Shown: positions 642 through 23,771 of the stretch, in pieces
How positions within the stretch are numbered: position 1 is the first letter of the stretch
How the letters are laid out: each line of letters opens with the position of its first letter
DNA from: Halorhodospira halophila SL1
GTDB lineage: Bacteria; Pseudomonadota; Gammaproteobacteria; Nitrococcales; Halorhodospiraceae
Length of the DNA: 32,000 bases
Assembly (NCBI RefSeq): GCF_000015585.1
Contig: NC_008789.1
Location: forward strand, 870,001-902,000
Direction: 5' to 3'
Translations under genes and position numbers: made by a program
The notes under the pieces: model-generated
Told to the model about the DNA's origin: nothing
The model's input: the letters and a program-made list of their open reading frames with translations, nothing else
Database searches by the model: none

Positions 642-2372
642 TCAAGCCGGGTGCTGAGGCACCTCTACACCTAGCTCGTCGAAGAGCTGGAGTTGCTCCG
701 GTGTCGGCTTGGTCACCCGCTCGTAGTCCTGCCCGGCGAGGTGAACTTTGTGGCGCTGTATACGGCGCAGCGCCCGTAACGCGTTCTCCGGTGAGTAACC
801 GCTACCAGCCGCCTTGAGACGCCGGCGCAGGATGCGATGCAGAACCAGGGCCAGGAAGCAGATGAGCGCGTGGGCACGGACGCGCTCCGGCAGCCGGTGG
901 TAGACCGGCGCGATTTGGATGTCGCTCTTGAGCACGCGGAAGCCGCGCTCAATGTCCGCAAGGGCCCGATAGCGGTCGGCGATCTCGCTCGGCGAGTACT
1001 CGTGGAGGCTCGTGACCAGCAGCAGCTTGCCGTCGAGCCGCTCGGCGGCCGCCCACGCCTCTTCGTCGATGTCATAGCGGAATTGCTCGGCGCCGAGGTC
1101 GGCCTTGACGATGCTCGAGAGGCTGCTGCGCAGGACGTGCTGATGGAAGCGCCGATGGGCGCTGCGATCAGTCGAGCGCCGCCCGCGGCCGGGCTTTCCC
1201 GCATCCTGGTTGTCGAGTCGCTGGGCCAGGGCCTCGCCGATCTGCTCTAGCCGGTGGATCTTGTGCCGGCGCGAGGCCTGCTGTTCGGCAGCCCGTTGCG
1301 GGTTGTGCGCCACAATCAGCCGGCGCCCCTGCCAAGTGGTCTCGGTGACGGCTTCGCCCTCATGCTCTGCCGCCTGCTTCTCGAGCTGCGGCTGCAGCTC
1401 GCTCATCAAGCCGGTGAACTCCGCATACCGGCGTCCGGGCACCGCCAGGATGTAATCGATAGCCAGGTCGTGCTGCGCGCTGAGCGCCTCCAGCGTGTCG
1501 ACATTGTCGAGGCTGAGCAGCCCCCGATCCGCGACCACGGCCACACGCCTGATCGGGTAGCGGCTGAGCAGGCGCTGGAGCATGGGTGCCAGGGTGCGCG
1601 TCTCCGCGACATTGCCCTCGAAGACCTCGTGGGCGATCGGCAGGCCATCGGAGGTCTGCACGACCCCGAGGGCGAATTGGCGGGCAACGCCGCCTGTGTC
1701 CTTGCTCTTGCCGCGCTGGCGCAGATCGTCCGCGACCTCCTCCACACCGTGGATGCGCACCGTGGTGATGTCCCAGAACACGACGCTGAGCTCCTGATCG
1801 AGCAGGGGCTTGAGCTGCCCGGCAATGGCCTGCTCGACCCGCTCGGGGTGGTTCATCAGCGCGTCCATGGCGCGCAGCAGCTGCTCGTGGTGCAGTTGCT
1901 CAGAATCCACACCCGGGAGGCTGACATCCTCCTGAAGCCAGTCGAGCACGCCGCGCTTGCTCCGCGGTGCAGCCAGCCGGTTGAAGACCATGGCGCGGAT
2001 CAGCGCCTCCGCGTCGAACTCGCGCCGCGACGAGCGCAGCGCCTTGCGAAGGGCGTCATCCAGGCCGAGTTCCTGCCAGAGCTGATGGAGCGTCCAAAGG
2101 TCTCCGAAGGCGCGAGCACGCTGAAACTCCGGTTCCGCTCTCCGGGGCTCAGACCGCCCAACAGCGCGTTGCAGGCCCTCGATGAGGCCGTCCACCTCGT
2201 CATCGCTGAGTTGGTCGGCCCGCCCGAGGTTCGCGACGGTGCGTTGCTTCACCCGTCCGTTGTCGTCGCGGTAGCCCTCGACGAGGCGGACGTAGCGGCG
2301 GGGACCGGATCGGACGACGCGTACATACATGCCACGACCGTATAACCCCCTTGTTCTATTTTCAAGGGGCAT
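642..2372 (-). CDS. IS1634-family / IS4-like DDE transposase
   Basis: The N-terminus MYVRVVRSGPRRYVRLVEGYRDDNGRVKQRTVANLGR is the classic IS1634-family opening. DDE-type motifs are present: VVFWDITT, VVADRGLLS, and YRALADIERGFRVLKSD (Y-R-E-K region). The real start is probably the internal Met at ~2330. Confidence 0.85.
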   Translation of the reverse strand: MPLENRTRGLYGRGMYVRVVRSGPRRYVRLVEGYRDDNGRVKQRTVANLGRADQLSDDEVDGLIEGLQRAVGRSEPRRAEPEFQRARAFGDLWTLHQLWQELGLDDALRKALRSSRREFDAEALIRAMVFNRLAAPRSKRGVLDWLQEDVSLPGVDSEQLHHEQLLRAMDALMNHPERVEQAIAGQLKPLLDQELSVVFWDITTVRIHGVEEVADDLRQRGKSKDTGGVARQFALGVVQTSDGLPIAHEVFEGNVAETRTLAPMLQRLLSRYPIRRVAVVADRGLLSLDNVDTLEALSAQHDLAIDYILAVPGRRYAEFTGLMSELQPQLEKQAAEHEGEAVTETTWQGRRLIVAHNPQRAAEQQASRRHKIHRLEQIGEALAQRLDNQDAGKPGRGRRSTDRSAHRRFHQHVLRSSLSSIVKADLGAEQFRYDIDEEAWAAAERLDGKLLLVTSLHEYSPSEIADRYRALADIERGFRVLKSDIQIAPVYHRLPERVRAHALICFLALVLHRILRRRLKAAGSGYSPENALRALRRIQRHKVHLAGQDYERVTKPTPEQLQLFDELGVEVPQHPA

Positions 2373-2432: not shown

Positions 2433-3086
2433 TCAGCACGTTATCTTCCACTGACTGGGGGTGTGCCGGGGCTCTGCTGTGGAAGTCGGGATCATCGGGG
2501 CTCCGCGGTCCTGGTGGACGGTGAGCTCGCCGGGCCGGATGGCATAGCGCTCCAGGGCCTCGCGGAAGAGGTGCTGCGCTAGGGCGGCGTTCTCCTTGCG
2601 CGAGATCATCCACGCCACCGGGTAGCGGGAGAACAGGTCCAGGACCTCGTAGAGGTTGAGGTAGACCCCCTTCCGGACCGTGGGCAACTTACTGATATCC
2701 CAGGACCAGCCCTCGTTGGGGCCACGGACCACGATCTGCGGCTTCACATGCCGCTGTGGCGGTCGCTGGTTGCGCCGCTCCTGGGTCTGCTCCCGCCGCC
2801 GCAAGATCCGGTAGATCGTGGATACCGAGGGCATCGGTCGCCCCTGATTCAGCTCCCGGGCATGGATGACCCGTACCGTTTCGTCCGCGTACGCGGTGCT
2901 GTTCACCGTCTCGAGGACGTGCTCGGCCTCCGCCTCCGAGAGCTGGCGCGGTTGCTTGCGTCCCTCTGTGGCCGCCTGGGCCCGTGACCGCCGTCGACGG
3001 GGATAGGTCCCCGTGCGGGAGAGCCCGAGGGCGTCACAGGCCCGGCTGCGGGGGACATGCGTGGGGCGCTCCACCAGGCAGCTCAT
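2433..3086 (-). pseudogene. IS3-family transposase OrfB, N-terminal fragment; authentic sequence ends at 2493, and the tail 2433..2492 is read-through into the inserted IS
   Basis: VHQDRGAPM is the first catalytic-Asp region of an rve domain. The frame then runs into the IS terminal repeat. The ATG at 3086..3084 overlaps the orfA stop (ATGA). Confidence 0.8.
2476..2490. repeat. Right terminal inverted repeat of the nested IS
   Basis: This is the partner of 566..581. It is immediately followed by the ATCAT target-site duplicate (2491..2495). Confidence 0.75.
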
Positions 3087-8031: not shown

Positions 8032-8916
8032 GTGCACGGCATGGCGTTTCCCTGGCTGTCCGGTCCTGATACCCTTACCACCTATGTGCCCTCAGGTTCA
8101 CCGTTGCCTAAGCATACCCCGTCGACCATTATCCTCCCCGGTTACGAGCGAACGGTCCGGGACATCGCCTCGGCGCTCGAGGCAAACGTCCACCCCATCC
8201 GCGACCACTCTACTCTTGAACTTATTAAGTCCAGCAAAGCCCTGGTCTATCGCTGGTCGTGTGCCGAGAAACCGCCCCTTATTATCAAATTCTATTACGC
8301 GCACACCATCAAGGATCGGCTGAAAGCACTCCTGCGCCCCCCCAAATCACTATTACAAACGGCTCTGGCCCTGCGCGCGAAAGGCATTCGTGTACCGCGA
8401 CCCGTCGCCGCAATACAGGTCCATCTAGATTCCCGTAGATATGGCGCTTACATCATGGAGTGCGCGCCAGGAGCAACACTTAGAGAGTGGGGGCGCAAGG
8501 GCCTCCCTGATACTTACCATATGCACCTTGCAGAAGAGATGGGGTTCCTGTGGGGCCTTCTTTTACGCCACAACTACCTTCATATGGACCCCATACGGGG
8601 CAACTTTCTCTACGACACCGGTGGCGCCCTCACCGCTCTCGATATCGATAACATTTACAAACTTCCATGGTTACCAGACACTGTGCGCGCGCGTCGATTA
8701 CTCAAAATGGCACACTGGCATTTGCTTCGATCACCCCAGTTGCTTGGGGACACCCCGGAACGCGAGCTCATCAAGCGTTTTGTTCACGCCTATGCGCGGG
8801 GACGAGGGGTTACGGCTGTCGAGGCTTGGCGAGAATGGCGCCACGTTGTTGATCGGCTTGCTAGGCGAAACCCCCACGCTTATTACGTTTTGCAACGTGT
8901 CCCTCTGAGGCCGTAG
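8032..8916 (+). CDS. Protein-kinase-like fold protein, lipopolysaccharide kinase (Kdo/WaaP) family (paralog A)
   Basis: Motifs: LIIKFY (beta3 Lys), KDRLKALLRP..., GIRVPRPVA, catalytic loop HMDPIRGN (HxDxxxxN) and LDIDN. It lies in the lower-G+C block. Its stop abuts the ATG of the next gene. Confidence 0.6.
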   Translation: MHGMAFPWLSGPDTLTTYVPSGSPLPKHTPSTIILPGYERTVRDIASALEANVHPIRDHSTLELIKSSKALVYRWSCAEKPPLIIKFYYAHTIKDRLKALLRPPKSLLQTALALRAKGIRVPRPVAAIQVHLDSRRYGAYIMECAPGATLREWGRKGLPDTYHMHLAEEMGFLWGLLLRHNYLHMDPIRGNFLYDTGGALTALDIDNIYKLPWLPDTVRARRLLKMAHWHLLRSPQLLGDTPERELIKRFVHAYARGRGVTAVEAWREWRHVVDRLARRNPHAYYVLQRVPLRP

Positions 8917-12112: not shown

Positions 12113-13009
12113 CTAGGCGCTGGTTCTAGATCCCGTGCCATGCCTCGAGAGCCCGAACATTGGCCGCAGGCAGCCACGATAAAACCGCAGCCCCTTATGG
12201 CGCACCCGACGCAACGGCAAATAAATCCACCACAGCACGAACCGCTCCGCATGACCCAGGTCCGCACCCCGCTTCTCCACGTAGGCTGCCCAGACGCGGG
12301 CGAAGTCCTCGTGCGAAAGTCGCAGCTTGAGGAGCAGACGGGCGGCGTTGAAGCAGCTCGGCCGCCCCTCGGCCAGCGCCTCCAGGTCGACGATGGTCAG
12401 CCCCTCTGTCTCGGCGCCCTCCTCCCCCCCTTCCGCAACGCTGGCAACGGCCAGCATATTCCCCATTCGGCAATCCTGTAGATAGACGCCGCTGGCGTGG
12501 AGCCGGGCCTGGAAGCGCCCCACCCGATCCGCCAGCTCGCCCAGCTCCGCACCCTCGTCCGGTTCCGGCAGCGGCTGGGCGTCGACGTAGCGGCAGATGA
12601 GGCAGGCGGCGACGACAGCATCCCCTTGGTAGCGATCCACTGCGCCGAGCGGCTGAGCAACGACACCCGGCAGCGCCCGGTCAAGGCGTCGCCCGGTTAG
12701 CCAGGCCGCCACCGCCGAACGTCGCTTGGTCTTGCCGGGGTTGGTGTACTTGAGCACCAGCGGACCAAACTCCTCCGTATCCAGACGATAGACATCGTGG
12801 CGCCGCCGAGAAGCCAACAACTCGCCGCGTACGGGCAACTCGGCCTCCCAGCGCGGCAGCCACTCCGCCAGCTCTGCCGGGGTCAGCACGCGGCTGTCGG
12901 TCAGCCACAGGGCACCGTCTTCGCCCTGCGCATGGGCAATAGCCGGGTCCTGGTGGGTTTCGGACTGAATACGGGCTTGGAGGTACTGCACGGACGTCGA
13001 ACCTAGCAA
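12113..13009 (-). CDS. Protein-kinase-like fold protein, Kdo/WaaP-like (paralog B)
   Basis: Motifs: LVLKYT (Lys), catalytic loop LQDCRMGN (xxDxxxxN) and IVDLE. The start is TTG at 13009 or GTG a few codons in. It is co-directional with, and 43 nt downstream of, the ParB-like gene. Confidence 0.5.
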   Translation of the reverse strand: MLGSTSVQYLQARIQSETHQDPAIAHAQGEDGALWLTDSRVLTPAELAEWLPRWEAELPVRGELLASRRRHDVYRLDTEEFGPLVLKYTNPGKTKRRSAVAAWLTGRRLDRALPGVVAQPLGAVDRYQGDAVVAACLICRYVDAQPLPEPDEGAELGELADRVGRFQARLHASGVYLQDCRMGNMLAVASVAEGGEEGAETEGLTIVDLEALAEGRPSCFNAARLLLKLRLSHEDFARVWAAYVEKRGADLGHAERFVLWWIYLPLRRVRHKGLRFYRGCLRPMFGLSRHGTGSRTSA

Positions 13010-13052: not shown

Positions 13053-13823
13053 TTAGGCGGCATCGCCCGCCACGCCCAGGGTGTAGGCCGCCAGCCCCCG
13101 TCGCACCGCCTCGCCCGGATCCGGCTCCTGGTACGCGCGCATGCACCCCTCCACCCAGCGGCTGTGCACATGGCGGACGTGCACGACCACCGTGGGCACC
13201 GCCAGGATCTGCGCCATGGCGAAACGGTGGCGGCCGTTGCCCAGACGCACCAGCCGTCCGTGGCGATCGATGGCCACGCGGACGTCGTCCTTCGGCTCTC
13301 CGCCGAGCTCCTGCTGGCCGAGGAAGCCATTGGCGCGCATGTTCTCGTAGGCATCGAACATCCGCTGGAAGTAAGCCTGGAGCTCCTGCTCCCGCTTGAT
13401 CCCTTTGCGAACCGACTTCCCCTGAACCATCTTTCGATAGAGCTTGCGGTACTCGTCGGTCTGCTCGATGGGCAGCCCCTGCTCGAAGATCTGGTAGATG
13501 GTCCGGCTGTGCCGGCAAGCCTCGCGCCAGGTGGGGTCCGTCGCCAGCGGATAGACCAGACGGTCCCAGGGTCCGGCAATGAGCTGGTAGCCACCGAGGA
13601 TGTAGCTCGGCACATCCGCGTAGTAGTGTGCGATGCTCGCCAGCGGCACCCGAATACTGCGCTTCTTGGCGGGAAGGAGACTGGCGTCCGGCTTGCGCAG
13701 CCCCAGGCGTCGAGCAGCGAGGCGGGTGGAGGCCCGGCAGATCGGGCGCAGTGCGCTGCTGGCCAGGGCCCGCCGGGAACGGCGCAGGCGGGCCGGGAGG
13801 TTCAGGGCCGTGATATCGGACAT
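13053..13823 (-). CDS. ParB/sulfiredoxin-fold (ParB-like nuclease domain) protein
   Basis: VRVAIDRHGRLVRLGNGRHRFAMAQILAVPTVVVHV matches the ParBc pattern (I.V...g...i.dG.HR..A...lG...ipv.v). Amino-acid composition is normal (K/E/Y/F-rich), unlike the antisense shadow ORF. The start is taken as Met at 13823, and the track extension to 14081 is rejected. Confidence 0.55.
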   Translation of the reverse strand: MSDITALNLPARLRRSRRALASSALRPICRASTRLAARRLGLRKPDASLLPAKKRSIRVPLASIAHYYADVPSYILGGYQLIAGPWDRLVYPLATDPTWREACRHSRTIYQIFEQGLPIEQTDEYRKLYRKMVQGKSVRKGIKREQELQAYFQRMFDAYENMRANGFLGQQELGGEPKDDVRVAIDRHGRLVRLGNGRHRFAMAQILAVPTVVVHVRHVHSRWVEGCMRAYQEPDPGEAVRRGLAAYTLGVAGDAA

Positions 13824-13968
13824 GACGGGGCTTCGATGGGCCGCTTCGTGATCAAGCGACGGTACCGTACCACTCTCCTGCATGTTGAGCGAAGGCCGCC
13901 CGAGCCGCGTGATCCGGCCGGGAACAACCGCTAGACTGGGCCGTCGGCGCGGACGAAGCGGAGCCAGC

Positions 13969-14778
13969 ATGCGTTGCCACACCCTGGAGGAGACCCCCGC
14001 GGAGGAGCTTCGCACCGCAGCGGAGCGGCTGCTGATGGCCGGCACCGCCCCCGACGGCGCCGAGCTCGTCGCCCGACGCAAGTCCCGCGTCTACCGGTAT
14101 CCGCGCGAAGACGGGCGGGTGGTTTACCTCAAGCACTACTGCGCCACCCAACCCAAGGAGCGGCTCAAGCGGCTTGTGCGCAACCCGGTGCGCAACCTCG
14201 CCCTTTGGCAGCGACTCGACGGCCTCGGGATCGAGACGCCCCACCCGCTGCTCATCGCCGAGCACGGACGCGAGTCGGTGCTGGTCACCGCGGAGGTGGC
14301 GCACACCACCGCCCGGCAGTGGCTGCGCGATGGCCGCCCCCTGGAGCCGTCCCTGCTCGCTGCCCTGGGCACCACCTGGGGACGGCTGCACACCCACGGG
14401 ATGCAATACGTGGACCCGAGCCCGGCCAATGTCTTCATTCCCGACCCGATCCCGGAGGCGCTGGGGCTGCTGGATCTCGACTCGCTCTATCAGGTCGGAT
14501 GGATCCCCGAGTGGCTCGCACGCCAGCGCCTGGGGCAGCTCTTCTCACGCTGGAGCGCCGAGTGCGCCAAGCAGGACCAGCCGCCACCCGACCCGGAGGC
14601 CTTTCTCGCCTTCTGGCAGGCCTACGGGGCCGTCACCGGCCGGCCGACGCGCAGTCACGCCCTGGCCGTGGCCCGGCGGGTCGAGGAGCGGACCGCCCGT
14701 GGCCGCGGCGCCCGCGCGGGTGATCGACTGGCGGCGACCGCCCGGCGATGGCGGGAACGCGTCCTCGAGACCCGCTAG
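13969..14778 (+). CDS. Protein-kinase-like fold protein, Kdo/WaaP family (paralog C; closest to paralog A)
   Basis: Motifs: VYLKHY, KERLKRLVRNP, LGIETPHPL, catalytic loop YVDPSPAN, and LLDLDSLYQVGWIPEW (compare paralog A LDIDNIYKLPWLPD). The start is taken as ATG 13969. Confidence 0.6.
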   Translation: MRCHTLEETPAEELRTAAERLLMAGTAPDGAELVARRKSRVYRYPREDGRVVYLKHYCATQPKERLKRLVRNPVRNLALWQRLDGLGIETPHPLLIAEHGRESVLVTAEVAHTTARQWLRDGRPLEPSLLAALGTTWGRLHTHGMQYVDPSPANVFIPDPIPEALGLLDLDSLYQVGWIPEWLARQRLGQLFSRWSAECAKQDQPPPDPEAFLAFWQAYGAVTGRPTRSHALAVARRVEERTARGRGARAGDRLAATARRWRERVLETR

Positions 14779-14799: not shown

Positions 14800-15348
14800 T
14801 TACGCGCTCCTCGGGCGGGGTGCGTAGTGCAGCACGAACTCGCCTTTCGGCCGTCCGCGCCCGAAACTCTGGAAACCACCGATGCGCTTGGCCGCCCGCC
14901 GGGCCGATTCGTTGTCCAGGCCGCGGTACTCCATGAGGTAGACCGCCATCAATGCGCCCGTGCGGCCGACACCGTGGACGCAGTGGATCACCACGGGCCC
15001 GTTGGCGGGGTCGTCCATCAGCTCGAGGAACGCCGCCACCGTGGATGCATCGGGCACCTGCGCCGAGGGGAGATGCACGTGGCGGATCCCGGCCGGCTCG
15101 AGCGCTGCCGCCTCGGCCTCGGCCCGATGGGCCTTGCGGCGCAGGTCGATCACGGTACGCACGCCCTGCGCCCGGCACAGCGCCACCAGGCGCTGGGGCG
15201 GCATCTCGGTGGTGCGGTAGAGGACGCCCGGCTCGATCGGGATCAGCCGGTAGTAGCCCACCGTCTGGAAAAACGCCTGCCAGCCGTTGAGGAATGCCCC
15301 CTCAAGCAGGTCCACGGTGGCGTGCCAAAGTTTACGTATGCGTTTCAT
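14800..15348 (-). CDS. Cysteine-based (CX5R) dual-specificity/tyrosine phosphatase-family protein
   Basis: The active-site P-loop is VVIHCVHGVGRTGALMAVYLM (HCxxGxxRT). An upstream Asp lies in SAQVPDAS. Confidence 0.75.
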   Translation of the reverse strand: MKRIRKLWHATVDLLEGAFLNGWQAFFQTVGYYRLIPIEPGVLYRTTEMPPQRLVALCRAQGVRTVIDLRRKAHRAEAEAAALEPAGIRHVHLPSAQVPDASTVAAFLELMDDPANGPVVIHCVHGVGRTGALMAVYLMEYRGLDNESARRAAKRIGGFQSFGRGRPKGEFVLHYAPRPRSA

Positions 15349-15419
15349 GATCGATGCAATTGTCTGGGGCTGGCGCGTATCCTACGCCGACACCCTGCTC
15401 AGGAATAGAACCCGCTGTG

Positions 15420-16271
15420 ATGGACACCCCCCGCGACCCGGCTGCTGCCACCCCGACGCCCTCCGTGCCGGAGGCCCTCCACCGCGAGGTCCTGGTGGCC
15501 CGCGACCAGGCGCGCAAGAACGTCTTCCTGCTAAGCCATCAGGGGCGTCAGGTCGTCGTCAAATTCCCCGATCAGAAGGGGCGCGGCTGGCTGCACGCCT
15601 GGTTGATGCGCACCACCGCCGCCCCGATGGTGCGCCACCCGTTGCCCGTTGCGCCGTTTCGTCTCAAGCCCCCGGCGGAGCGTACCGCCTTCGAGGCACA
15701 GCGCCTGCACGCGCTGGCTGAAGCCGGGGCTCCCGTGCCGCGGTTGGTGGGCCTCGGCGACGGCTATCTGATCATGGAGCACGCCGGACAGCGCCTGGAG
15801 AATTGGACACGGGACCTCAACCTGCCGCCTGCCGAGGTCGATGCCCGGGTGCTGGCTGCGGCACGGGCCCTGGCCCAGCTCCACTGCACCGGCGGCTGGC
15901 ACGGAGCACCGCAGTTACGCAACATCATGGTCCGGGACGACGGGAGCGTGGCCTTCATCGACTTCGAGGAGGATCTCTCCATCCTCGAGCCGGAGGCGCG
16001 CCACGCCTACGATCTGCTGCAGTTCCTCTCCTCGCTGGTGGTGCCGCGGGACGACGGCCCCCACCGCCCGGAACTGACCGAGCGGGCCGCCCGCGCCTAT
16101 CTTGCCCTGATGGGCGACGGCCCGTTGGGCCCGCTGGCCGCCTACCAGCGGCGGGCAGCCCGCATCAAGCGCTGGCTGGGCCCGGTGCGGCGGCGCCTGG
16201 GCAAGGACGTGCAGCGGACTTTCGGGGCAATCGACGTGGTGGAGGCCCTGCTCCGCGACCCCGCCCGCTAG
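15420..16271 (+). CDS. Protein-kinase-like fold protein with Asp-to-Ala substitution in the catalytic loop (paralog D; predicted pseudokinase or atypical enzyme)
   Basis: Motifs: VVVKFP (Lys), FEAQRLHAL (alphaC Glu), YLIMEHAG (hinge), WHGAPQLRN in place of HxDxxxxN, and FIDFEED. The start is taken as ATG 15420. Confidence 0.6.
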   Translation: MDTPRDPAAATPTPSVPEALHREVLVARDQARKNVFLLSHQGRQVVVKFPDQKGRGWLHAWLMRTTAAPMVRHPLPVAPFRLKPPAERTAFEAQRLHALAEAGAPVPRLVGLGDGYLIMEHAGQRLENWTRDLNLPPAEVDARVLAAARALAQLHCTGGWHGAPQLRNIMVRDDGSVAFIDFEEDLSILEPEARHAYDLLQFLSSLVVPRDDGPHRPELTERAARAYLALMGDGPLGPLAAYQRRAARIKRWLGPVRRRLGKDVQRTFGAIDVVEALLRDPAR

Positions 16272-17134
16272 TCGGCGGTCCGCTCCAGCCCACCCCGGAG
16301 GGCCTGCCCGAGGGCCGCGATGCGCCGGGCGTCCCCGCCCACCCAGCGGGCCACCCCAGCCATCACTCCCTGTATGCGCCGGGATCGCGACTGGTAGCGC
16401 TCCAGGCATCCGCGCGCTTGCGCGCCACCGGCGGTCTGCAGATAGGCCACCAATGCCTCTTCGGCCAGCGACACCTGGGGCGGGTGCTTCTTGCCCCGCA
16501 GGATCACCAGTGAGGAGAGAAACTTGACGATGTCGTTGGCGGCACATACCTCCGCAGGCACGGCCCGGAGGTCTTCTTCGAAGTCGATCAGGTGGATGGC
16601 CCCGGCCTCATCGACCAGCACGTTTCGGATGCGGGGGGCGCCGTGCCAGTGCCCCTGGGCGTGGAGCGAACCAAGCAGCTCGGCGGCCGCCACCACCTGA
16701 TCGCCGCAGGCGGCCCGCGGCTCGGTCGCCCGCCGCAGCTGCCGCTCGAGCGGTGTGCCCGCGGCCTCCATCACCAGATACCGGTTGGCCTTCACCCCCA
16801 CCAGCCGCGGCACGGGCGCCCCGGCACGGCGCAGCGCGTCGAGCCGGCCGGCCTCGAACAGGACCCGCGGTCCAGGCGCGGCCATTTGAAACGGCTCCAG
16901 CGGCAGCCGTTCACCGGCCATCGTCGAGGCGCTCATGCGCATGGCCTGGGACTTGATCCAGCTCCGCCCCTTGTCGTCCGGGAACTTGACGACCAGCTTC
17001 CGGCCATCCTGCTCCAGCTCAAGCACCGGCTTCCGGGCCTGCCCGGCCAACCCTTCGATCTGCTCCTGCAGCGCAAGCGGGACGGGGGGAAGAACCTCGG
17101 GGGGCGCGACTGCACTGACTGTCGACTGGTTCAT
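16268..17134 (-). CDS. Protein-kinase-like fold protein, paralog of 15420..16271, with the same Asp-to-Ala substitution (paralog E)
   Basis: Motifs: LVVKFPDDKGRSW, FEAGRLDALRRAGAPVPRLVG, WHGAPRIRN, LIDFEED and FLSSLVILR, collinear with paralog D. ATG at 17134. The track extension to 17926 is antisense to PAP2 and was rejected. Confidence 0.6.
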   Translation of the reverse strand: MNQSTVSAVAPPEVLPPVPLALQEQIEGLAGQARKPVLELEQDGRKLVVKFPDDKGRSWIKSQAMRMSASTMAGERLPLEPFQMAAPGPRVLFEAGRLDALRRAGAPVPRLVGVKANRYLVMEAAGTPLERQLRRATEPRAACGDQVVAAAELLGSLHAQGHWHGAPRIRNVLVDEAGAIHLIDFEEDLRAVPAEVCAANDIVKFLSSLVILRGKKHPPQVSLAEEALVAYLQTAGGAQARGCLERYQSRSRRIQGVMAGVARWVGGDARRIAALGQALRGGLERTAD

Positions 17135-17233: not shown

Positions 17234-18079
17234 ATGCAGCACACCTACCGACGCCTTCTCGCAGGATCGCTCGGCATCGCTGTGCTCGTCGGGTTGAGCG
17301 GCGCTCCCGCCCCTACACACGCGGCATCCGGCGACACCCCGGGCCAGGCGGAATCCGCCCCCGGCGAGTACACGTACTGGGGCAACTTCCTGCGCATCCC
17401 GGCCCGCGCCGCCGGCGAGCTGGTGCGCACGGATCCGGAGGGGCTGCGGCGCAACGCCATCGCGGTGGGCTCCATCGCCGCCGCCTTCGCCCTCGATCAG
17501 CAGATCCGCGACACCATGCAGGACGACCTGCGCGGGCGCGATAGCGACGAACTCACCGATATCCTCTACGAGGTCGGGCGCCCGAAAGTCGCCCTGGCCG
17601 GTTTCGTCGGCGGCTACGCCTACAGCTTCCTGGCCCGGGATCGCTACTTCCGCGAGACCCTGCACCTCTCTTTCCAGTCCCTGCTGATCACGCAGGTCAT
17701 CACCGATACCACGCGGAATGTCGGGCGCGAACGGCCACGCAACAGCCCCGACGACGCCTTCAACTTCGGCAACCGCGGCGGGCAGTCGTATTTCTCGGGG
17801 CACGCCTCGGGGACCTGGGCGGTGATGACCGTACTGGCCTCCCGCTATCCGCACGCGCCGGTCCAGTGGGGCGCCTACGGGCTGGCCACCGCAGTCTCGC
17901 TCTCCCGCGTGCACGATGACGGGCACTGGACCTCGGATATCGTTACGGGTTCATTGGTCGGCTACGGCATCGGGCGACTCACCGTGGCCCTGGATCCTTT
18001 CGAGAGCGACCACGTCCACCTGACCCCGCACCGGTTCGAGGACGACGACTGGGGCGTGGGCCTCCACGCCCGTTTCTAG
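17234..18079 (+). CDS. PAP2-superfamily membrane phosphatase with signal peptide (candidate lipid A / undecaprenyl-PP phosphatase)
   Basis: Signal-like N-terminus LLAGSLGIAVLVGLSGAPAPTHA. PAP2 motifs TRNVGRERP (KX6RP-like), FSGHAS (SGH) and SRVHDDGHWTSD (SRX5HX3D). About six hydrophobic segments. Confidence 0.75.
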   Translation: MQHTYRRLLAGSLGIAVLVGLSGAPAPTHAASGDTPGQAESAPGEYTYWGNFLRIPARAAGELVRTDPEGLRRNAIAVGSIAAAFALDQQIRDTMQDDLRGRDSDELTDILYEVGRPKVALAGFVGGYAYSFLARDRYFRETLHLSFQSLLITQVITDTTRNVGRERPRNSPDDAFNFGNRGGQSYFSGHASGTWAVMTVLASRYPHAPVQWGAYGLATAVSLSRVHDDGHWTSDIVTGSLVGYGIGRLTVALDPFESDHVHLTPHRFEDDDWGVGLHARF

Positions 18080-18099: not shown

Positions 18100-19995
<1,896 letters not shown>

Positions 19996-22463: not shown

Positions 22464-23771
22464 ATGCGCTGGACCCCCTTGACCGCTGCGGCCCTCGCCA
22501 CCCTGCTGCCGCTGACCGCGGCCGCCAACCACCACCCTGCCGGCTCGGCGCTGGGCTTTGGCGATGCCACTCGCTTTGCCGACACCCAGGGCAGCAAGCA
22601 GAACCCCGCCGGCCCCATCGCCGCCAGCGACCGGGGCGTGCGCATGGGCGTCTTCGCCCTCGGCCTCTCCTACGAGCTGGGCGATGTCGCCGACTTCAGC
22701 GACGACTTCGAGGCGCTCGGGGAGGAGCTCGAAGACCTGGAGCGGCTGCTCGAGGAGGTGGAGTCGGGGGACGTCGATCCCGACAACGCCGAGGACGAGA
22801 TTGAGTCATTCCAGGCCAATGTGAATGAAATCCTCGACCGCATCGGTGAGGACGGCTACCTGACCGCCGGGGTCACCGGGCAGTTCGTGCCCTTCCCCTT
22901 CGAGACCACCCAGGACGCCCTGCGCGGCTCGCTGCTCATCGATCTGGACTACAGCCTGCGCGGGCACATCTCGGTGCTCCGGGGGGAAGACCTCGACCTG
23001 AGTATCGACGACCAGGATGACGCCGGGGACGCTTTGGACACCCTCGACGGCTTCGGCGGTTACGTCCGCAGCGCCGTCACCCGGACGTTCACCCTCGGCT
23101 ACGGCTCCGCCGTCTACGAGAACCGGCAGGGATTGCTCTTCGCGGGGGCGCAGCTCAAGCACCACCAGGTGGAGCTCTCGCGGATGGCGGTGGGCTTCGA
23201 TGACGACCCGGGCAGCCAGCTCAGCGACGAATTCCGCGAGAACGCCGAGACCGACTCGGATCTCGGGGTGGATCTGGGGGTGATGTGGGTCAGCGACCGG
23301 TACCGGGCCGGGGCCAGCGTGGCCAACCTGATCGAGCCCACCTTCGACTACCCGGCGGTGGAGGACGACGACACCTTCGACGCCGCCGCCGAGCGCGGCG
23401 AAATCGACCGGGATGAGTCCTACCGCATGGAGCGCCAGCTCAGCGTCGAAGGAGCGGTCCACACCGACGACGGACGCTGGCTGCTGGGCGGCTCGCTGGA
23501 TCTCAACCCCGCCGACGGGCCCTTTGCCGCCGGCTCCGAAGACGCCTACCAGTGGTTGACCGTGGGCGCCGCTTACCGTTCGCCCCACGCCGCCCTGCCC
23601 GGATGGCGACTGGGCTATCGGCAGAACCTGACCGGCTCGGAGCTCGGCTACCTGACCGGCGGTGTGACGCTCTTCCGCGTCCTGAGCCTGGATGCGGCCA
23701 TGAGCACGGAGACGGTGGACTCCGTGCCGCGGGCGTTCATGCTCAACGCCGGCGTGGGGCTGCGCTTCTAG
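22464..23771 (+). CDS. Secreted acidic outer-membrane beta-barrel protein (TraF_2-like family suspected)
   Basis: The signal peptide is MRWTPLTAAALATLLPLTAAA. The C-terminal half has alternating beta-strand patterns, and it ends in the OMP-type terminus AGVGLRF. It has a long Asp/Glu-rich helical insert. Confidence 0.5.
   Translation: MRWTPLTAAALATLLPLTAAANHHPAGSALGFGDATRFADTQGSKQNPAGPIAASDRGVRMGVFALGLSYELGDVADFSDDFEALGEELEDLERLLEEVESGDVDPDNAEDEIESFQANVNEILDRIGEDGYLTAGVTGQFVPFPFETTQDALRGSLLIDLDYSLRGHISVLRGEDLDLSIDDQDDAGDALDTLDGFGGYVRSAVTRTFTLGYGSAVYENRQGLLFAGAQLKHHQVELSRMAVGFDDDPGSQLSDEFRENAETDSDLGVDLGVMWVSDRYRAGASVANLIEPTFDYPAVEDDDTFDAAAERGEIDRDESYRMERQLSVEGAVHTDDGRWLLGGSLDLNPADGPFAAGSEDAYQWLTVGAAYRSPHAALPGWRLGYRQNLTGSELGYLTGGVTLFRVLSLDAAMSTETVDSVPRAFMLNAGVGLRF

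What the first reader, a model, noticed from the sequence alone, without database searches (positions are those of the whole stretch)
15420..17134. Convergent pair of kinase-fold paralogs that both lack the catalytic Asp (HGA instead of HxD)
The two ORFs (15420..16271 on + and 16268..17134 on -) are clear paralogs. Shared blocks:
- VVKFPD.KGR.W
- FEA.RL.AL..AGAPVPRLVG
- WHGAP..RN..V
- IDFEEDL
- FLSSLV..R

Both keep the beta3 Lys, the alphaC Glu and the metal-binding Asp. In both, Ala sits exactly where the catalytic base should be, five residues before the conserved Asn. Conservation of the substitution in both copies argues it is functional rather than decay: a pseudokinase scaffold or sensor, or a non-canonical chemistry. 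The genes face each other and share the tetranucleotide CTAG (16268..16271) as overlapping stop codons. That leaves no room for terminators, so the transcripts are probably mutually antisense at their 3' ends.
Basis: seen in the sequence. Interest (0 to 1): 0.7.

Follow-up and report, generated by a model that had tools for sequence, protein, structure and literature searches.

The report
Kinase-like LPS proteins lacking catalytic Asp
Two back-to-back genes in the lipopolysaccharide gene cluster of Halorhodospira halophila belong to a widespread, unstudied bacterial family of kinase-shaped proteins that keeps every ATP-binding residue but never has the aspartate that normal kinases use for catalysis, so they either use unusual chemistry or act as non-catalytic partners.

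Summary
ORF A (15420..16271 +) and ORF B (16268..17134 -) are paralogs: 45% identity, E 9e-62. All five shared blocks are present, and the two stop codons share CTAG at 16268..16271.

The motif register is right. Alignments to Bud32, WaaP, WaaY and a KdkA-like kinase all put Ala in the catalytic-Asp column.

The substitution is family-wide, not strain-specific decay. In 149 sequences (A, B and 147 representatives from an unbiased HMMER search of 1.84 billion proteins), that position is G/R/A/N/S/Q/C/K/F and never D or E. The beta3 Lys, alphaC Glu, loop His, Asn/Asp and the D-F-E motif are almost invariant.

A family HMM scores members at 133-241 bits. E. coli InaA, itself Asp-less (HGC), scores 34 bits, and canonical LPS kinases score 25 bits or less.

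The AlphaFold model (pLDDT 93.5) is a Bud32/RIO-like kinase fold.

The genes recur in lipopolysaccharide contexts: MsbA, Kdo kinase, LpxL, LpxB, PldA, and one fusion to a canonical Kdo-kinase-like domain. Many members lie elsewhere, for example rplI-X-dnaB in Bordetella and Achromobacter.

No member is characterised. Whether the proteins are atypical enzymes or ATP-binding pseudokinases remains open. The antisense-transcript idea was not tested.

The parts
15420..16271 (+). ORF A, 283 aa: Asp-less kinase-like protein. Alternative GTG start at 15417 gives the 284-aa database protein P0001, named 'lipopolysaccharide kinase InaA family protein'.
   Evidence: AlphaFold model pLDDT 93.5, pTM 0.91.
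16268..17134 (-). ORF B, 288 aa: paralog of A (45% identity).
   Evidence: The ATG at 17134 is preferred over the database TTG start at residue 29, because homology to A and the family extends upstream of that point.
16268..16271 (.). CTAG shared by the two convergent stop codons (4-nt gene overlap).
   Evidence: Read directly. No terminator-like site nearby.
15897..15923 (+). Catalytic-loop equivalent of A, W160-H-G-A163-P-Q-L-R-N168. Ala (15906..15908) sits in the catalytic-Asp column.
16622..16648 (-). Catalytic-loop equivalent of B, W163-H-G-A166-P-R-I-R-N171. Ala codon at 16637..16639.
15957..15977 (+). I-D181-F-E183-E-D-L of A. D181 is the metal-binding Asp (DFG equivalent). E183 is invariant in the 50-sequence alignment A1 and is E in 143 of 149 family sequences.
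16568..16588 (-). I-D184-F-E186-E-D-L of B.
15561..15563 (+). beta3 Lys K48 of A. The alphaC Glu E92 is at 15693..15695.
14800..15348 (-). Context: Cys-based dual-specificity/PTP-like phosphatase (HCVHGVGRTG), divergent from A. The same phosphatase-to-family-member arrangement is seen in L004.
13882..14778 (+). Context: canonical kinase-like paralog 'kinD' (YVDPSPAN, LLDLDS). Its orthologs sit in tandem with the single Asp-less gene and next to msbA in L003, L004 and L014.
12113..13009 (-). Context: canonical kinase-like paralog 'kinC' (YLQDCRMGN, IVDLEAL).
17234..18079 (+). Context: PAP2-family phosphatase.
18100..19995 (+). Context: MsbA lipid A/core flippase (TIGR02203, 689.6 bits, above the cutoff of 602).

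Best explanation
A and B are functional members of a discrete, widespread proteobacterial clade of the Bud32/RIO/Kdo-kinase branch of the protein-kinase-like fold. The clade lost the catalytic-loop Asp at its origin and kept the whole ATP-Mg binding apparatus.

Shown:
- The fold.
- The motif register.
- The family-wide absence of Asp and Glu at the catalytic position.
- The near-invariance of the beta3 Lys, alphaC Glu, loop His-Gly, a basic residue at +4, Asn/Asp at +5, and D-F-E.
- Recurrent genomic linkage to lipopolysaccharide inner-core and lipid A genes.
- One fusion to a canonical Kdo-kinase-like domain.

Inferred mechanism, to which I commit at about 40%: the proteins bind ATP-Mg and still transfer phosphate, but onto an acceptor that needs no general base. 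The acceptor would be an already anionic group on the cytoplasmic lipid A-core intermediate, for example a phosphomonoester on Kdo, heptose or lipid A converted to a diphosphate. The small residue (Gly/Ala) or Arg in the Asp position, together with the conserved loop Gln and Arg/Lys, would make room for that anionic group and bind it.

In H. halophila the gene is duplicated (A-type and B-type). The two copies happen to be convergent.
For: Paralogy and motifs.

Register.

Family-wide pattern in 149 sequences (A, B and 147 representatives) from a search that used no motif filter:
- Asp position: G59, R40, A27, N9, S6, Q3, C2, K2, F1; D and E both 0.
- beta3 Lys 140 of 141 non-gap sequences.
- alphaC Glu 142 of 144.
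- Loop His 147 of 149.
- Arg/Lys at +4: 142 of 149.
- Asn 104 and Asp 44 at +5.
- Metal-binding Asp 148 of 149, and the following Glu 143 of 149.

The catalytic loop is the best-conserved block of the family, which is not expected of a mere scaffold. Arg at the Asp position in 40 sequences would put a positive charge where the acceptor should sit (inference).

Discrete clade: the A1 HMM gives members 133-241 bits, InaA 33.7, and a KdkA-like kinase 25 or less. WaaP, WaaY, kinC and kinD give no hit.

Fold: AlphaFold pLDDT 93.5, pTM 0.91. Best Foldseek match is Bud32 in KEOPS, followed by protein kinases and Rio2.

Lipopolysaccharide linkage:
- The window cluster holds MsbA, a WecA-like gene, an O-antigen ligase-like gene, a GT2 gene, PAP2 and three canonical kinase paralogs.
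- L003, L004 and L014: msbA, kinD, then the family member.
- L012 and L023: KdoO, KdkA, GT9, LpxL, the family member, MsbA.
- L002: next to LpxB.
- L006 and L008: next to PldA, with LptF/G nearby.
- Single loci next to WaaA or LpxL.
- P0129 fuses a canonical PF06293 domain (8e-47, HPDLNARN) to an Asp-less domain, inside a heptose/GT9 core cluster.

Precedent, from established knowledge and not tested here: inositol-hexakisphosphate kinases make diphosphates without a general-base Asp.
Against: No biochemical data exist for any member. Database names are only 'InaA family', 'RIO1 family', 'Bud32', 'Ser/Thr kinase' or 'hypothetical'.

Loss of the HxD Asp is the textbook signature of a pseudokinase. 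Tandem arrangement or fusion with a canonical kinase fits a regulatory partner equally well.

Many members are not in lipopolysaccharide loci. In the metagenome sample, 19 of 63 have dnaB immediately downstream and 10 of 60 have rplI immediately upstream, and 8 lie next to a GGDEF gene. The lipopolysaccharide link is therefore recurrent but not universal.

The acceptor is pure inference. The model coordinates could not be inspected, so a spatially substituting acidic residue such as the near-invariant E183 cannot be excluded. Foldseek TM-scores are modest, at 0.3-0.5.
Confidence: 0.4

Rival explanations
1. ATP-binding pseudokinase. A and B bind nucleotide as a structural cofactor and have no phosphotransfer activity. 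They act as an allosteric partner or scaffold for a canonical lipopolysaccharide core kinase (kinD or KdkA-type) or for the MsbA export step. Known analogs are Fam20A activating Fam20C, STRAD with LKB1, and the JAK JH2 domain.
For: The catalytic Asp is absent family-wide. The gene is in tandem with a canonical kinase next to msbA in L003, L004 and L014. P0129 fuses a canonical Kdo-kinase-like domain to an Asp-less domain. The window holds three canonical paralogs that could be partners. The residue at the Asp position varies (G/R/A/N/S...), as expected if no specific chemistry is required there.
Against: Only one catalytic residue is missing. Most established pseudokinases have lost several motifs. 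The catalytic loop (W-H-G-x-[AP]-Q-[LIV]-[RK]-[ND]) is the most conserved block of the family. Most members are solitary genes far from any kinase gene.
Confidence: 0.35
2. ATPase-type conformational switch, like its closest structural relatives Bud32 and RIO. These hydrolyse ATP to drive a step in a larger assembly rather than phosphorylating a substrate. Here the assembly might be a lipid A-core assembly or hand-over complex, or an acyl-ACP-bound complex as described for WaaP.
For: The best sequence and structure relatives are Bud32/PRPK and Rio2. There is no activation segment, and a basic helical C-terminal extension is present. One subgroup sits between fabH and fabD, close to acpP. P. 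aeruginosa WaaP needs tightly bound acyl-ACP (PMC6147952).
Against: From general knowledge, not checked here: ATPase activity in Bud32 and RIO still depends on the catalytic-loop Asp that is missing in this family. No conserved partner gene is seen across the family.
Confidence: 0.15
3. Decaying or strain-specific inactivated kinase genes (pseudogenes in the making).
For: Only the missing Asp itself.
Against: Both ORFs are intact. All other key residues are conserved in both copies and across the 149 aligned sequences, out of 353 hits at E<=1e-3. Named members come from Rhodospirillales, Burkholderiales and Halorhodospira. No homolog carries HGD. The model is confident.
Confidence: 0.02

Closest known systems
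E. coli InaA (b2237), 'putative lipopolysaccharide kinase InaA'; NCBI names ORF A after it
   Same: It shares the PKL fold branch and also lacks the catalytic Asp. It reads QHGCCYVRH and FLDLEKS, aligned column for column with WHGAPQLRN and IDFEED. Its function is also unknown.
   Different: It lies outside the clade: the family HMM gives InaA 33.7 bits against 133-241 bits for members. InaA also lacks the loop Asn (it has His). At 216 aa it is shorter and lacks the C-terminal helical extension. It is not in a lipopolysaccharide cluster.
Canonical LPS core kinases WaaP, WaaY and KdkA (Pfam PF06293)
   Same: Same Pfam family at marginal score: A scores 24.1 bits against a cutoff of 21.3. They occupy the same kind of gene cluster and share the Lys, the Glu and the D-x-[ED] metal motif.
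   Different: WaaP (HRD), WaaY (SGD) and the KdkA-like kinase (HPD) all keep the catalytic Asp. B scores below the Pfam cutoff (20.4), and only 13 of 50 family members hit PF06293 at E<=1e-3. WaaP 6dfl matches the family profile only at E 0.0078.
Bud32/PRPK (KEOPS) and RIO kinases/ATPases
   Same: They are the best solved-structure relatives by sequence profile (2e-9) and by Foldseek (8k20_B, 6fdn). They share the compact kinase fold without an activation loop, and the H-G-x...N loop spacing.
   Different: Bud32 and RIO have HGD/HxD. NCBIfam Bud32 models score 35 bits against a cutoff of 125. Bud32 and RIO are archaeal and eukaryotic tRNA and ribosome factors, whereas this family is proteobacterial.
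Kinase/pseudokinase pairs such as Fam20A-Fam20C and JAK JH2-JH1 (functional analogy only, from general knowledge)
   Same: A kinase-fold protein lacking a catalytic residue is encoded beside, or fused to, a canonical paralog (L003, L004, L014, P0129).
   Different: There is no homology beyond the fold. No interaction was tested. Most family members are not adjacent to a kinase gene.

Membership tests
Protein-kinase-like (PKL) fold superfamily | Bilobal kinase fold | tested here: met
   AlphaFold model pLDDT 93.5, pTM 0.91. Foldseek against PDB gives 704 matches at E<=0.001, and all 50 listed are kinase-fold proteins. The top match is Bud32.
Protein-kinase-like (PKL) fold superfamily | ATP-binding beta3 Lys, alphaC Glu, catalytic-loop Asn and metal-binding Asp (DFG equivalent) | tested here: met
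   K48, E92, N168 and D181 in A; K50, E94, N171 and D184 in B. These columns are almost invariant across the 149 aligned sequences.
Protein-kinase-like (PKL) fold superfamily | Catalytic-loop Asp (HxD), the general base or acceptor-orienting residue | tested here: not met
   Ala in A and B. D and E are both 0 of 149 in the family. Register confirmed.
Pfam PF06293 Kdo/WaaP lipopolysaccharide kinase family | Score at or above the gathering threshold (21.3 bits) | tested here: inconclusive
   A scores 24.1 bits (above), B 20.4 bits (below). Only 13 of 50 family members match at E<=1e-3.
Pfam PF06293 Kdo/WaaP lipopolysaccharide kinase family | ATP-dependent phosphorylation of a Kdo or heptose hydroxyl of the LPS inner core | not testable with these tools
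   Only the genomic context supports a link to lipopolysaccharide.
InaA family (NCBI naming of P0001) | Close sequence relationship to E. coli InaA | tested here: not met
   BLASTP 23% identity, E 7e-5 over 137 residues. The family HMM scores InaA 33.7 bits against at least 133 bits for members. InaA is a neighbour, not a member. No NCBIfam model reached its cutoff.
Bud32 / RIO atypical kinases | Curated model cutoffs (TIGR03724: 125 bits; PF01163: 22 bits) and the HGD catalytic loop | tested here: not met
   TIGR03724 gives 35.5 bits for A and 34.6 for B. RIO1 gives 20.4 for A and 13.6 for B. The loop has no Asp.
Pseudokinase (operational class) | Kinase-fold domain lacking at least one of the canonical catalytic residues (VAIK Lys, HRD Asp, DFG Asp) | tested here: met
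   The HRD-equivalent Asp is absent.
Pseudokinase (operational class) | Absence of phosphotransfer activity | not testable with these tools
   Requires biochemistry.

The most novel reading that the evidence does not exclude
The Asp-less clade are lipopolysaccharide 'pyrophosphokinases'. They would add a second phosphate onto an existing phosphomonoester of Kdo, heptose or lipid A on the cytoplasmic lipid A-core intermediate, which needs no general base. The divergently encoded Cys-based DSP-type phosphatase, syntenic in the window and in L004, would be the matching phosphatase. The pair would form a kinase/phosphatase cycle that tunes the diphosphate content and charge of the outer membrane. 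This would assign an enzyme family to core di- and triphosphates whose origin is still unassigned, to my knowledge, for example in Pseudomonas.
Probability: 0.15. Interest if true: 0.8.

Novelty: new variant of a known kind. Interest (0 to 1): 0.55.

Why it matters
Phosphates on the lipopolysaccharide inner core and lipid A hold the Gram-negative outer membrane together. They also set resistance to cationic antimicrobials. WaaP is essential in P. aeruginosa and is a drug target (PMC3147165, PMC6147952).

This work delimits a large, uncharacterised sister clade of these kinases. It is present in Bordetella, Achromobacter, a Neisseria MAG, a Coxiellaceae MAG, Halorhodospira and many metagenomic lineages. 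It has dispensed with the catalytic Asp while preserving everything needed to bind ATP-Mg.

Two outcomes are possible:
- If the proteins are active, they define a kinase-fold chemistry without a general base in envelope biogenesis.
- If they are inactive, they are a conserved bacterial pseudokinase partner of lipopolysaccharide assembly, of which I know no described example.

Either way the family is sharply defined. An HMM cleanly separates members from other kinase-like proteins, and there are testable residues (K48, A163, R167, N168, D181, E183). The question is directly approachable in genetically tractable Bordetella or Achromobacter.

Tried and rejected
- The word-indexed homolog search with A alone or with the 50-sequence alignment returned only 3 and 9 proteins. 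It even missed B. The exhaustive HMMER search was needed.
A narrower alignment, A2, worked, but the search pattern WHG[GA][AP]Q[LIV]RN biases that set of 80 loci towards the G/A subfamily. Those loci were therefore used only for gene context, never for the residue tally.
- A tblastn panel of window and LPS genes against the 80 loci showed that MsbA/LPS linkage is limited to a minority. MsbA-like ABC hits occur in 6 loci, of which 3 are strong. I therefore rejected the idea that the family is universally part of an msbA operon.
- My first crude ORF caller failed on high-GC loci and was replaced by one using a GC3 filter. Neighbour calls remain approximate.
- tblastn of B against PLSDB plasmids found nothing.
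- The promoter and terminator scan gave nothing informative at the junction.
- Foldseek TM-scores are low, and WaaP was not among the top 50. No specific structural neighbour beyond 'Bud32/RIO-like kinase fold' is claimed.
- Model coordinates are not exposed. I could not check whether another acidic side chain reaches the catalytic position.
- Literature searches for pseudokinase, LPS kinase, InaA, PA4998 and Ttg8 found no description of this clade.
- Pseudomonas PA4998 ('toluene tolerance protein/kinase', next to msbA; PMC8005017) may be related to kinD or to this family.
- Decay or pseudogene status was rejected.
Full report
**1. Observation**

The window comes from Halorhodospira halophila. 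The database copy of ORF A, P0001, is 100% identical and is named 'lipopolysaccharide kinase InaA family protein [Halorhodospira halophila]'.

ORF A (15420..16271, +, 283 aa) and ORF B (16268..17134, -, 288 aa) are both open. They are clear paralogs: 45% identity over 251 residues, E 9e-62.

Reading the DNA gives these details:
- CTAG occupies 16268..16271. TAG at 16269..16271 ends A, and the reverse complement of 16268..16270 ends B.
- The A loop W-H-G-A-P-Q-L-R-N is encoded at 15897..15923.
- The B loop W-H-G-A-P-R-I-R-N is encoded on the minus strand at 16622..16648.

The database version of B (P0004, 260 aa) starts at an internal TTG. The region upstream of that start is homologous to A and to other family members, and it is a confidently modelled helix. 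The ATG at 17134 is therefore the better start.

**2. Is the motif register right?**

Yes. Four independent alignments agree:
- phmmer against PDB aligns wHGAPQLRN of A with iHGDLTTSN of Bud32 (9x4g_B), and IDFEE with IDFGL.
- A profile of 50 family members aligns HwHGgaqlRN with the HGD loop of three different Bud32/PRPK structures.
- BLASTP aligns the loop with QHGCCYVRH of E. coli InaA.
- MAFFT places the family's Ala/Gly/Arg in the column that holds the catalytic Asp in five kinases. These are E. coli WaaP (HRD), WaaY (SGD), the two canonical kinase paralogs of the window (LQD, YVD) and a KdkA-like kinase (HPD).

**3. Is it family-wide?**

An exhaustive HMMER search with B against 1.84 billion cluster representatives found 353 proteins at E<=1e-3 and 42 at E<=1e-10. 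I aligned A and B with 147 of the 150 best hits and tallied the key columns.

| Position | Residues observed (149 sequences) |
|---|---|
| Catalytic-Asp position | G59, R40, A27, N9, S6, Q3, C2, K2, F1; never D or E |
| beta3 Lys | 140 of 141 non-gap sequences |
| alphaC Glu | 142 of 144 |
| Loop His | 147 of 149 |
| +4 | Arg/Lys in 142 of 149 |
| +5 | Asn 104, Asp 44 |
| D-F-E motif | Asp 148 of 149; Glu 143 of 149 |

Two loop flavours are visible: HG[GA]xQx[RK]N and HGRPxx[KR]D. In the subgroups from the Neisseria MAG and from the fab cluster even the His is replaced (YLSQAFARN, YLGAPVARN). They still have no Asp.

The loss of Asp is ancestral to the clade and has been maintained under selection.

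**4. What family is it?**

Curated models barely see it:
- PF06293 (Kdo/WaaP) scores 24.1 bits for A and 20.4 for B, against a cutoff of 21.3.
- RIO1 and APH give weak matches.
- NCBIfam Bud32 and KdkA models score far below their cutoffs.
- Only 13 of 50 members match PF06293 at E<=1e-3.

An HMM built from the 50-member alignment separates members cleanly:
- Members score 133-241 bits. These include proteins from a Coxiellaceae MAG, a Neisseria MAG, an Alcaligenaceae locus, and the fab-linked and pldA-linked subgroups.
- E. coli InaA scores 33.7 bits.
- KdkA-like domains score 25 bits or less.
- WaaP, WaaY and the window's canonical paralogs give no hit.

The AlphaFold model of A is confident (pLDDT 93.5, pTM 0.91). 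It shows an N-lobe sheet with the alphaC helix, a short C-lobe without an activation segment, and three extra C-terminal helices. Foldseek finds Bud32 in KEOPS first, followed by many protein kinases, Rio2 and the MLKL pseudokinase. TM-scores are modest, at 0.3-0.5.

This matches the published grouping of KdoK with Rio and Bud32 (PMC1821047). That paper also notes that almost every 'invariant' kinase residue is dispensable in some family.

Database names for members are only 'InaA family', 'RIO1 family regulatory kinase/ATPase', 'Bud32', 'serine/threonine protein kinase' or 'hypothetical'. The named members come from Phaeovibrio, Pigmentiphaga, Achromobacter and Bordetella. I found no paper describing the clade.

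**5. Genomic context**

The window is a lipopolysaccharide assembly cluster. In order it holds:
- a GT2 glycosyltransferase and an O-antigen-ligase-like gene;
- three canonical kinase-like paralogs, at 8032..8916 (found only by comparison with kinD), 12113..13009 and 13882..14778;
- a Cys-based DSP/PTP-like phosphatase divergent from A (14800..15348);
- A and B;
- a PAP2 phosphatase;
- MsbA (TIGR02203, 689.6 bits);
- a WecA-like transferase.

The closest relatives whose neighbourhoods could be read show a single Asp-less gene:
- L004: phosphatase(-), then the family member(+), kinD-like(+) and MsbA(-).
- L003: MsbA, kinD-like, family member.
- L014: kinC(-), then MsbA, kinD, family member ... 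WecA.

L003 (2.2 kb) and L014 (12 kb) are short contigs, so a second copy elsewhere in those genomes cannot be excluded.

A neighbour-joining tree groups A with the phosphatase-linked P0006, and B with the kinD/MsbA-linked P0005 and the L014 gene. The internal branches are short, so this is weak. It suggests two old subtypes, both retained in H. halophila. The convergent arrangement of A and B is local.

Other lineages also show envelope contexts:
- KdoO, KdkA, heptosyltransferase, LpxL, family member, with MsbA convergent (L012, L023).
- SLT, family member, LpxB in a Neisseria MAG.
- Next to PldA, with LptF/G nearby.
- Between fabH and fabD, close to acpP.
- Single cases beside WaaA or LpxL.
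- P0129 fuses a bona fide PF06293 domain (8e-47, HPDLNARN/IDFD) to an Asp-less domain (YHSRPALRD/VDFEE). It sits inside a heptose-biosynthesis and GT9 cluster.
- P0012 fuses DUF347 membrane repeats to the domain.

The link is not universal. In 80 metagenomic loci, 19 of 63 scanned downstream neighbours are DnaB and 10 of 60 scanned upstream neighbours are ribosomal protein L9. That rplI-X-dnaB arrangement belongs to Alcaligenaceae (Bordetella, Achromobacter). Eight more loci lie beside a GGDEF sensor gene.

**6. Mechanism**

Shown:
- A kinase fold with an intact ATP-Mg site.
- A strongly conserved catalytic loop that lacks the general base.
- Recurrent linkage, and one fusion, to inner-core and lipid A genes.

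Inferred: the proteins work on the cytoplasmic lipid A-core intermediate before or at MsbA.

My preferred reading (about 40%) is that they remain phosphotransferases for an acceptor that is already anionic, such as a phosphomonoester. Three points support this:
- The loop is the most conserved part of the protein.
- The Asp position is either small (Gly/Ala) or Arg.
- A basic residue at +4 is nearly invariant.

In the kinase fold these positions would face the acceptor, and positive charge or extra room there suits a phosphate (inference). Inositol-pyrophosphate-forming kinases are a precedent for base-less phosphate-to-phosphate transfer. That point is general knowledge and was not tested here.

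The main rival (about 35%) is an ATP-binding pseudokinase that partners a canonical LPS kinase or MsbA. This is equally compatible with the tandem arrangement and the fusion.

An ATPase switch in the manner of Bud32/RIO is third (about 15%). One subgroup sits in the fab cluster, and P. aeruginosa WaaP depends on acyl-ACP (PMC6147952). That makes an ACP-bound state worth testing.

Decay is excluded.

The near-invariant Glu after D-F (E183) corresponds to the DFG-Gly position. In choline kinases a Glu at that position stabilises the ATP pocket (PMC1821047). It does not have to be a substitute base, but I could not inspect the model coordinates to check.

**7. The convergent overlap**

No terminator-like hairpin is found around the junction, so read-through into the partner gene is plausible. 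It remains untested. The same 4-nt convergent overlap occurs between a family member and msbA in L012. This suggests ordinary genome compaction rather than a dedicated antisense mechanism.

**8. Verdict**

These genes are two members of a sharply delimited, widespread and uncharacterised Asp-less clade. The clade sits next to the LPS kinases and InaA in the Bud32/RIO/KdoK branch.

It is a new variant of a known kind (atypical kinase or pseudokinase), not a new category. Interest is moderate. The biology, envelope phosphorylation with unknown chemistry in pathogen genera, is directly testable, but nothing here yet shows an unprecedented mechanism.

Noticed in passing
window 8032..8916 (+): A fifth kinase-like gene in the cluster. 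Pfam finds nothing at E<=1e-3, but it is 31% identical to the canonical paralog at 13882..14778 (E 3e-15). It keeps the catalytic Asp (HMDPIRGN) and the metal motif LDIDN. The cluster therefore holds three canonical and two Asp-less kinase-fold genes.
   Followed up: partly
window 14800..15348 (-); L004 5318..5869: A Cys-based DSP/PTP-like phosphatase (HCVHGVGRTG) is encoded divergently from ORF A. Its best Pfam matches are PTP-NADK, Tc-R-P and PTP-SAK, with weak PTP-like phytase and Y_phosphatase2 matches. The same arrangement is seen with the A-type ortholog P0006 in GCA_022229325.1. This may be a kinase-like/phosphatase pair.
   Followed up: partly
window 13053..14081 (-); L023 8456..8857; L027 2378..2815: An ORF with no Pfam or NCBIfam match lies between two kinase paralogs. 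It has weak tblastn relatives (E 8e-6 and 3e-8) immediately upstream of msbA in two unrelated metagenomic loci. This may be a small conserved msbA-associated gene. The listed 342-aa ORF is probably too long at its 5' end.
   Followed up: no
L094 6001..7653 (P0129); P0012: Two natural fusions of the Asp-less domain. P0129 has a canonical Kdo-kinase-like domain plus an Asp-less domain, in a heptose/GT9 LPS core cluster. P0012 has DUF347 membrane repeats plus an Asp-less domain.
   Followed up: partly
L043-L045, L049, L054, L065, L068, L072, L079, L090, L093 and others: In Alcaligenaceae (Bordetella, Achromobacter) the family member sits in a housekeeping position, rpsR-rplI-X-dnaB. It is far from LPS genes and is annotated as hypothetical, 'RIO1 family' or 'Ser/Thr kinase'.
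   Followed up: partly
L010 6001..6819; L011 2554..3372: One subgroup is embedded in the fatty-acid synthesis cluster: rpmF-fabH-X-fabD-fabG-acpP-fabF. This is intriguing because P. aeruginosa WaaP is stabilised by tightly bound acyl-ACP (PMC6147952).
   Followed up: no
window 16268..17134 (-), residues 1-28: The public protein for ORF B (P0004, 260 aa) starts at an internal TTG (residue 29). That omits a conserved N-terminal helix and is probably a mis-called start.
   Followed up: yes
L012 5455..5458: A family member and msbA are convergent with a 4-nt overlap. This is the same geometry as the A/B junction in the window.
   Followed up: no
window 642..2372 (-) and 2433..3086 (-): A DDE transposase (PF01609) and an rve-type integrase ORF lie about 5-7 kb upstream of the first cluster gene (8032). 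They are insertion-sequence remnants.
   Followed up: no
window 22464..23771 (+): A 435-aa ORF matches PF13729 (TraF_2, E 3e-56). It lies downstream of a PotA/PhnT-like ABC ATPase and is unrelated to the finding.
   Followed up: no
PMC8005017 table (Pseudomonas PA4997/PA4998): In Pseudomonas, msbA is followed by PA4998, a 'toluene tolerance protein/kinase' of unknown function. This echoes the msbA-kinD arrangement seen here.
   Followed up: no
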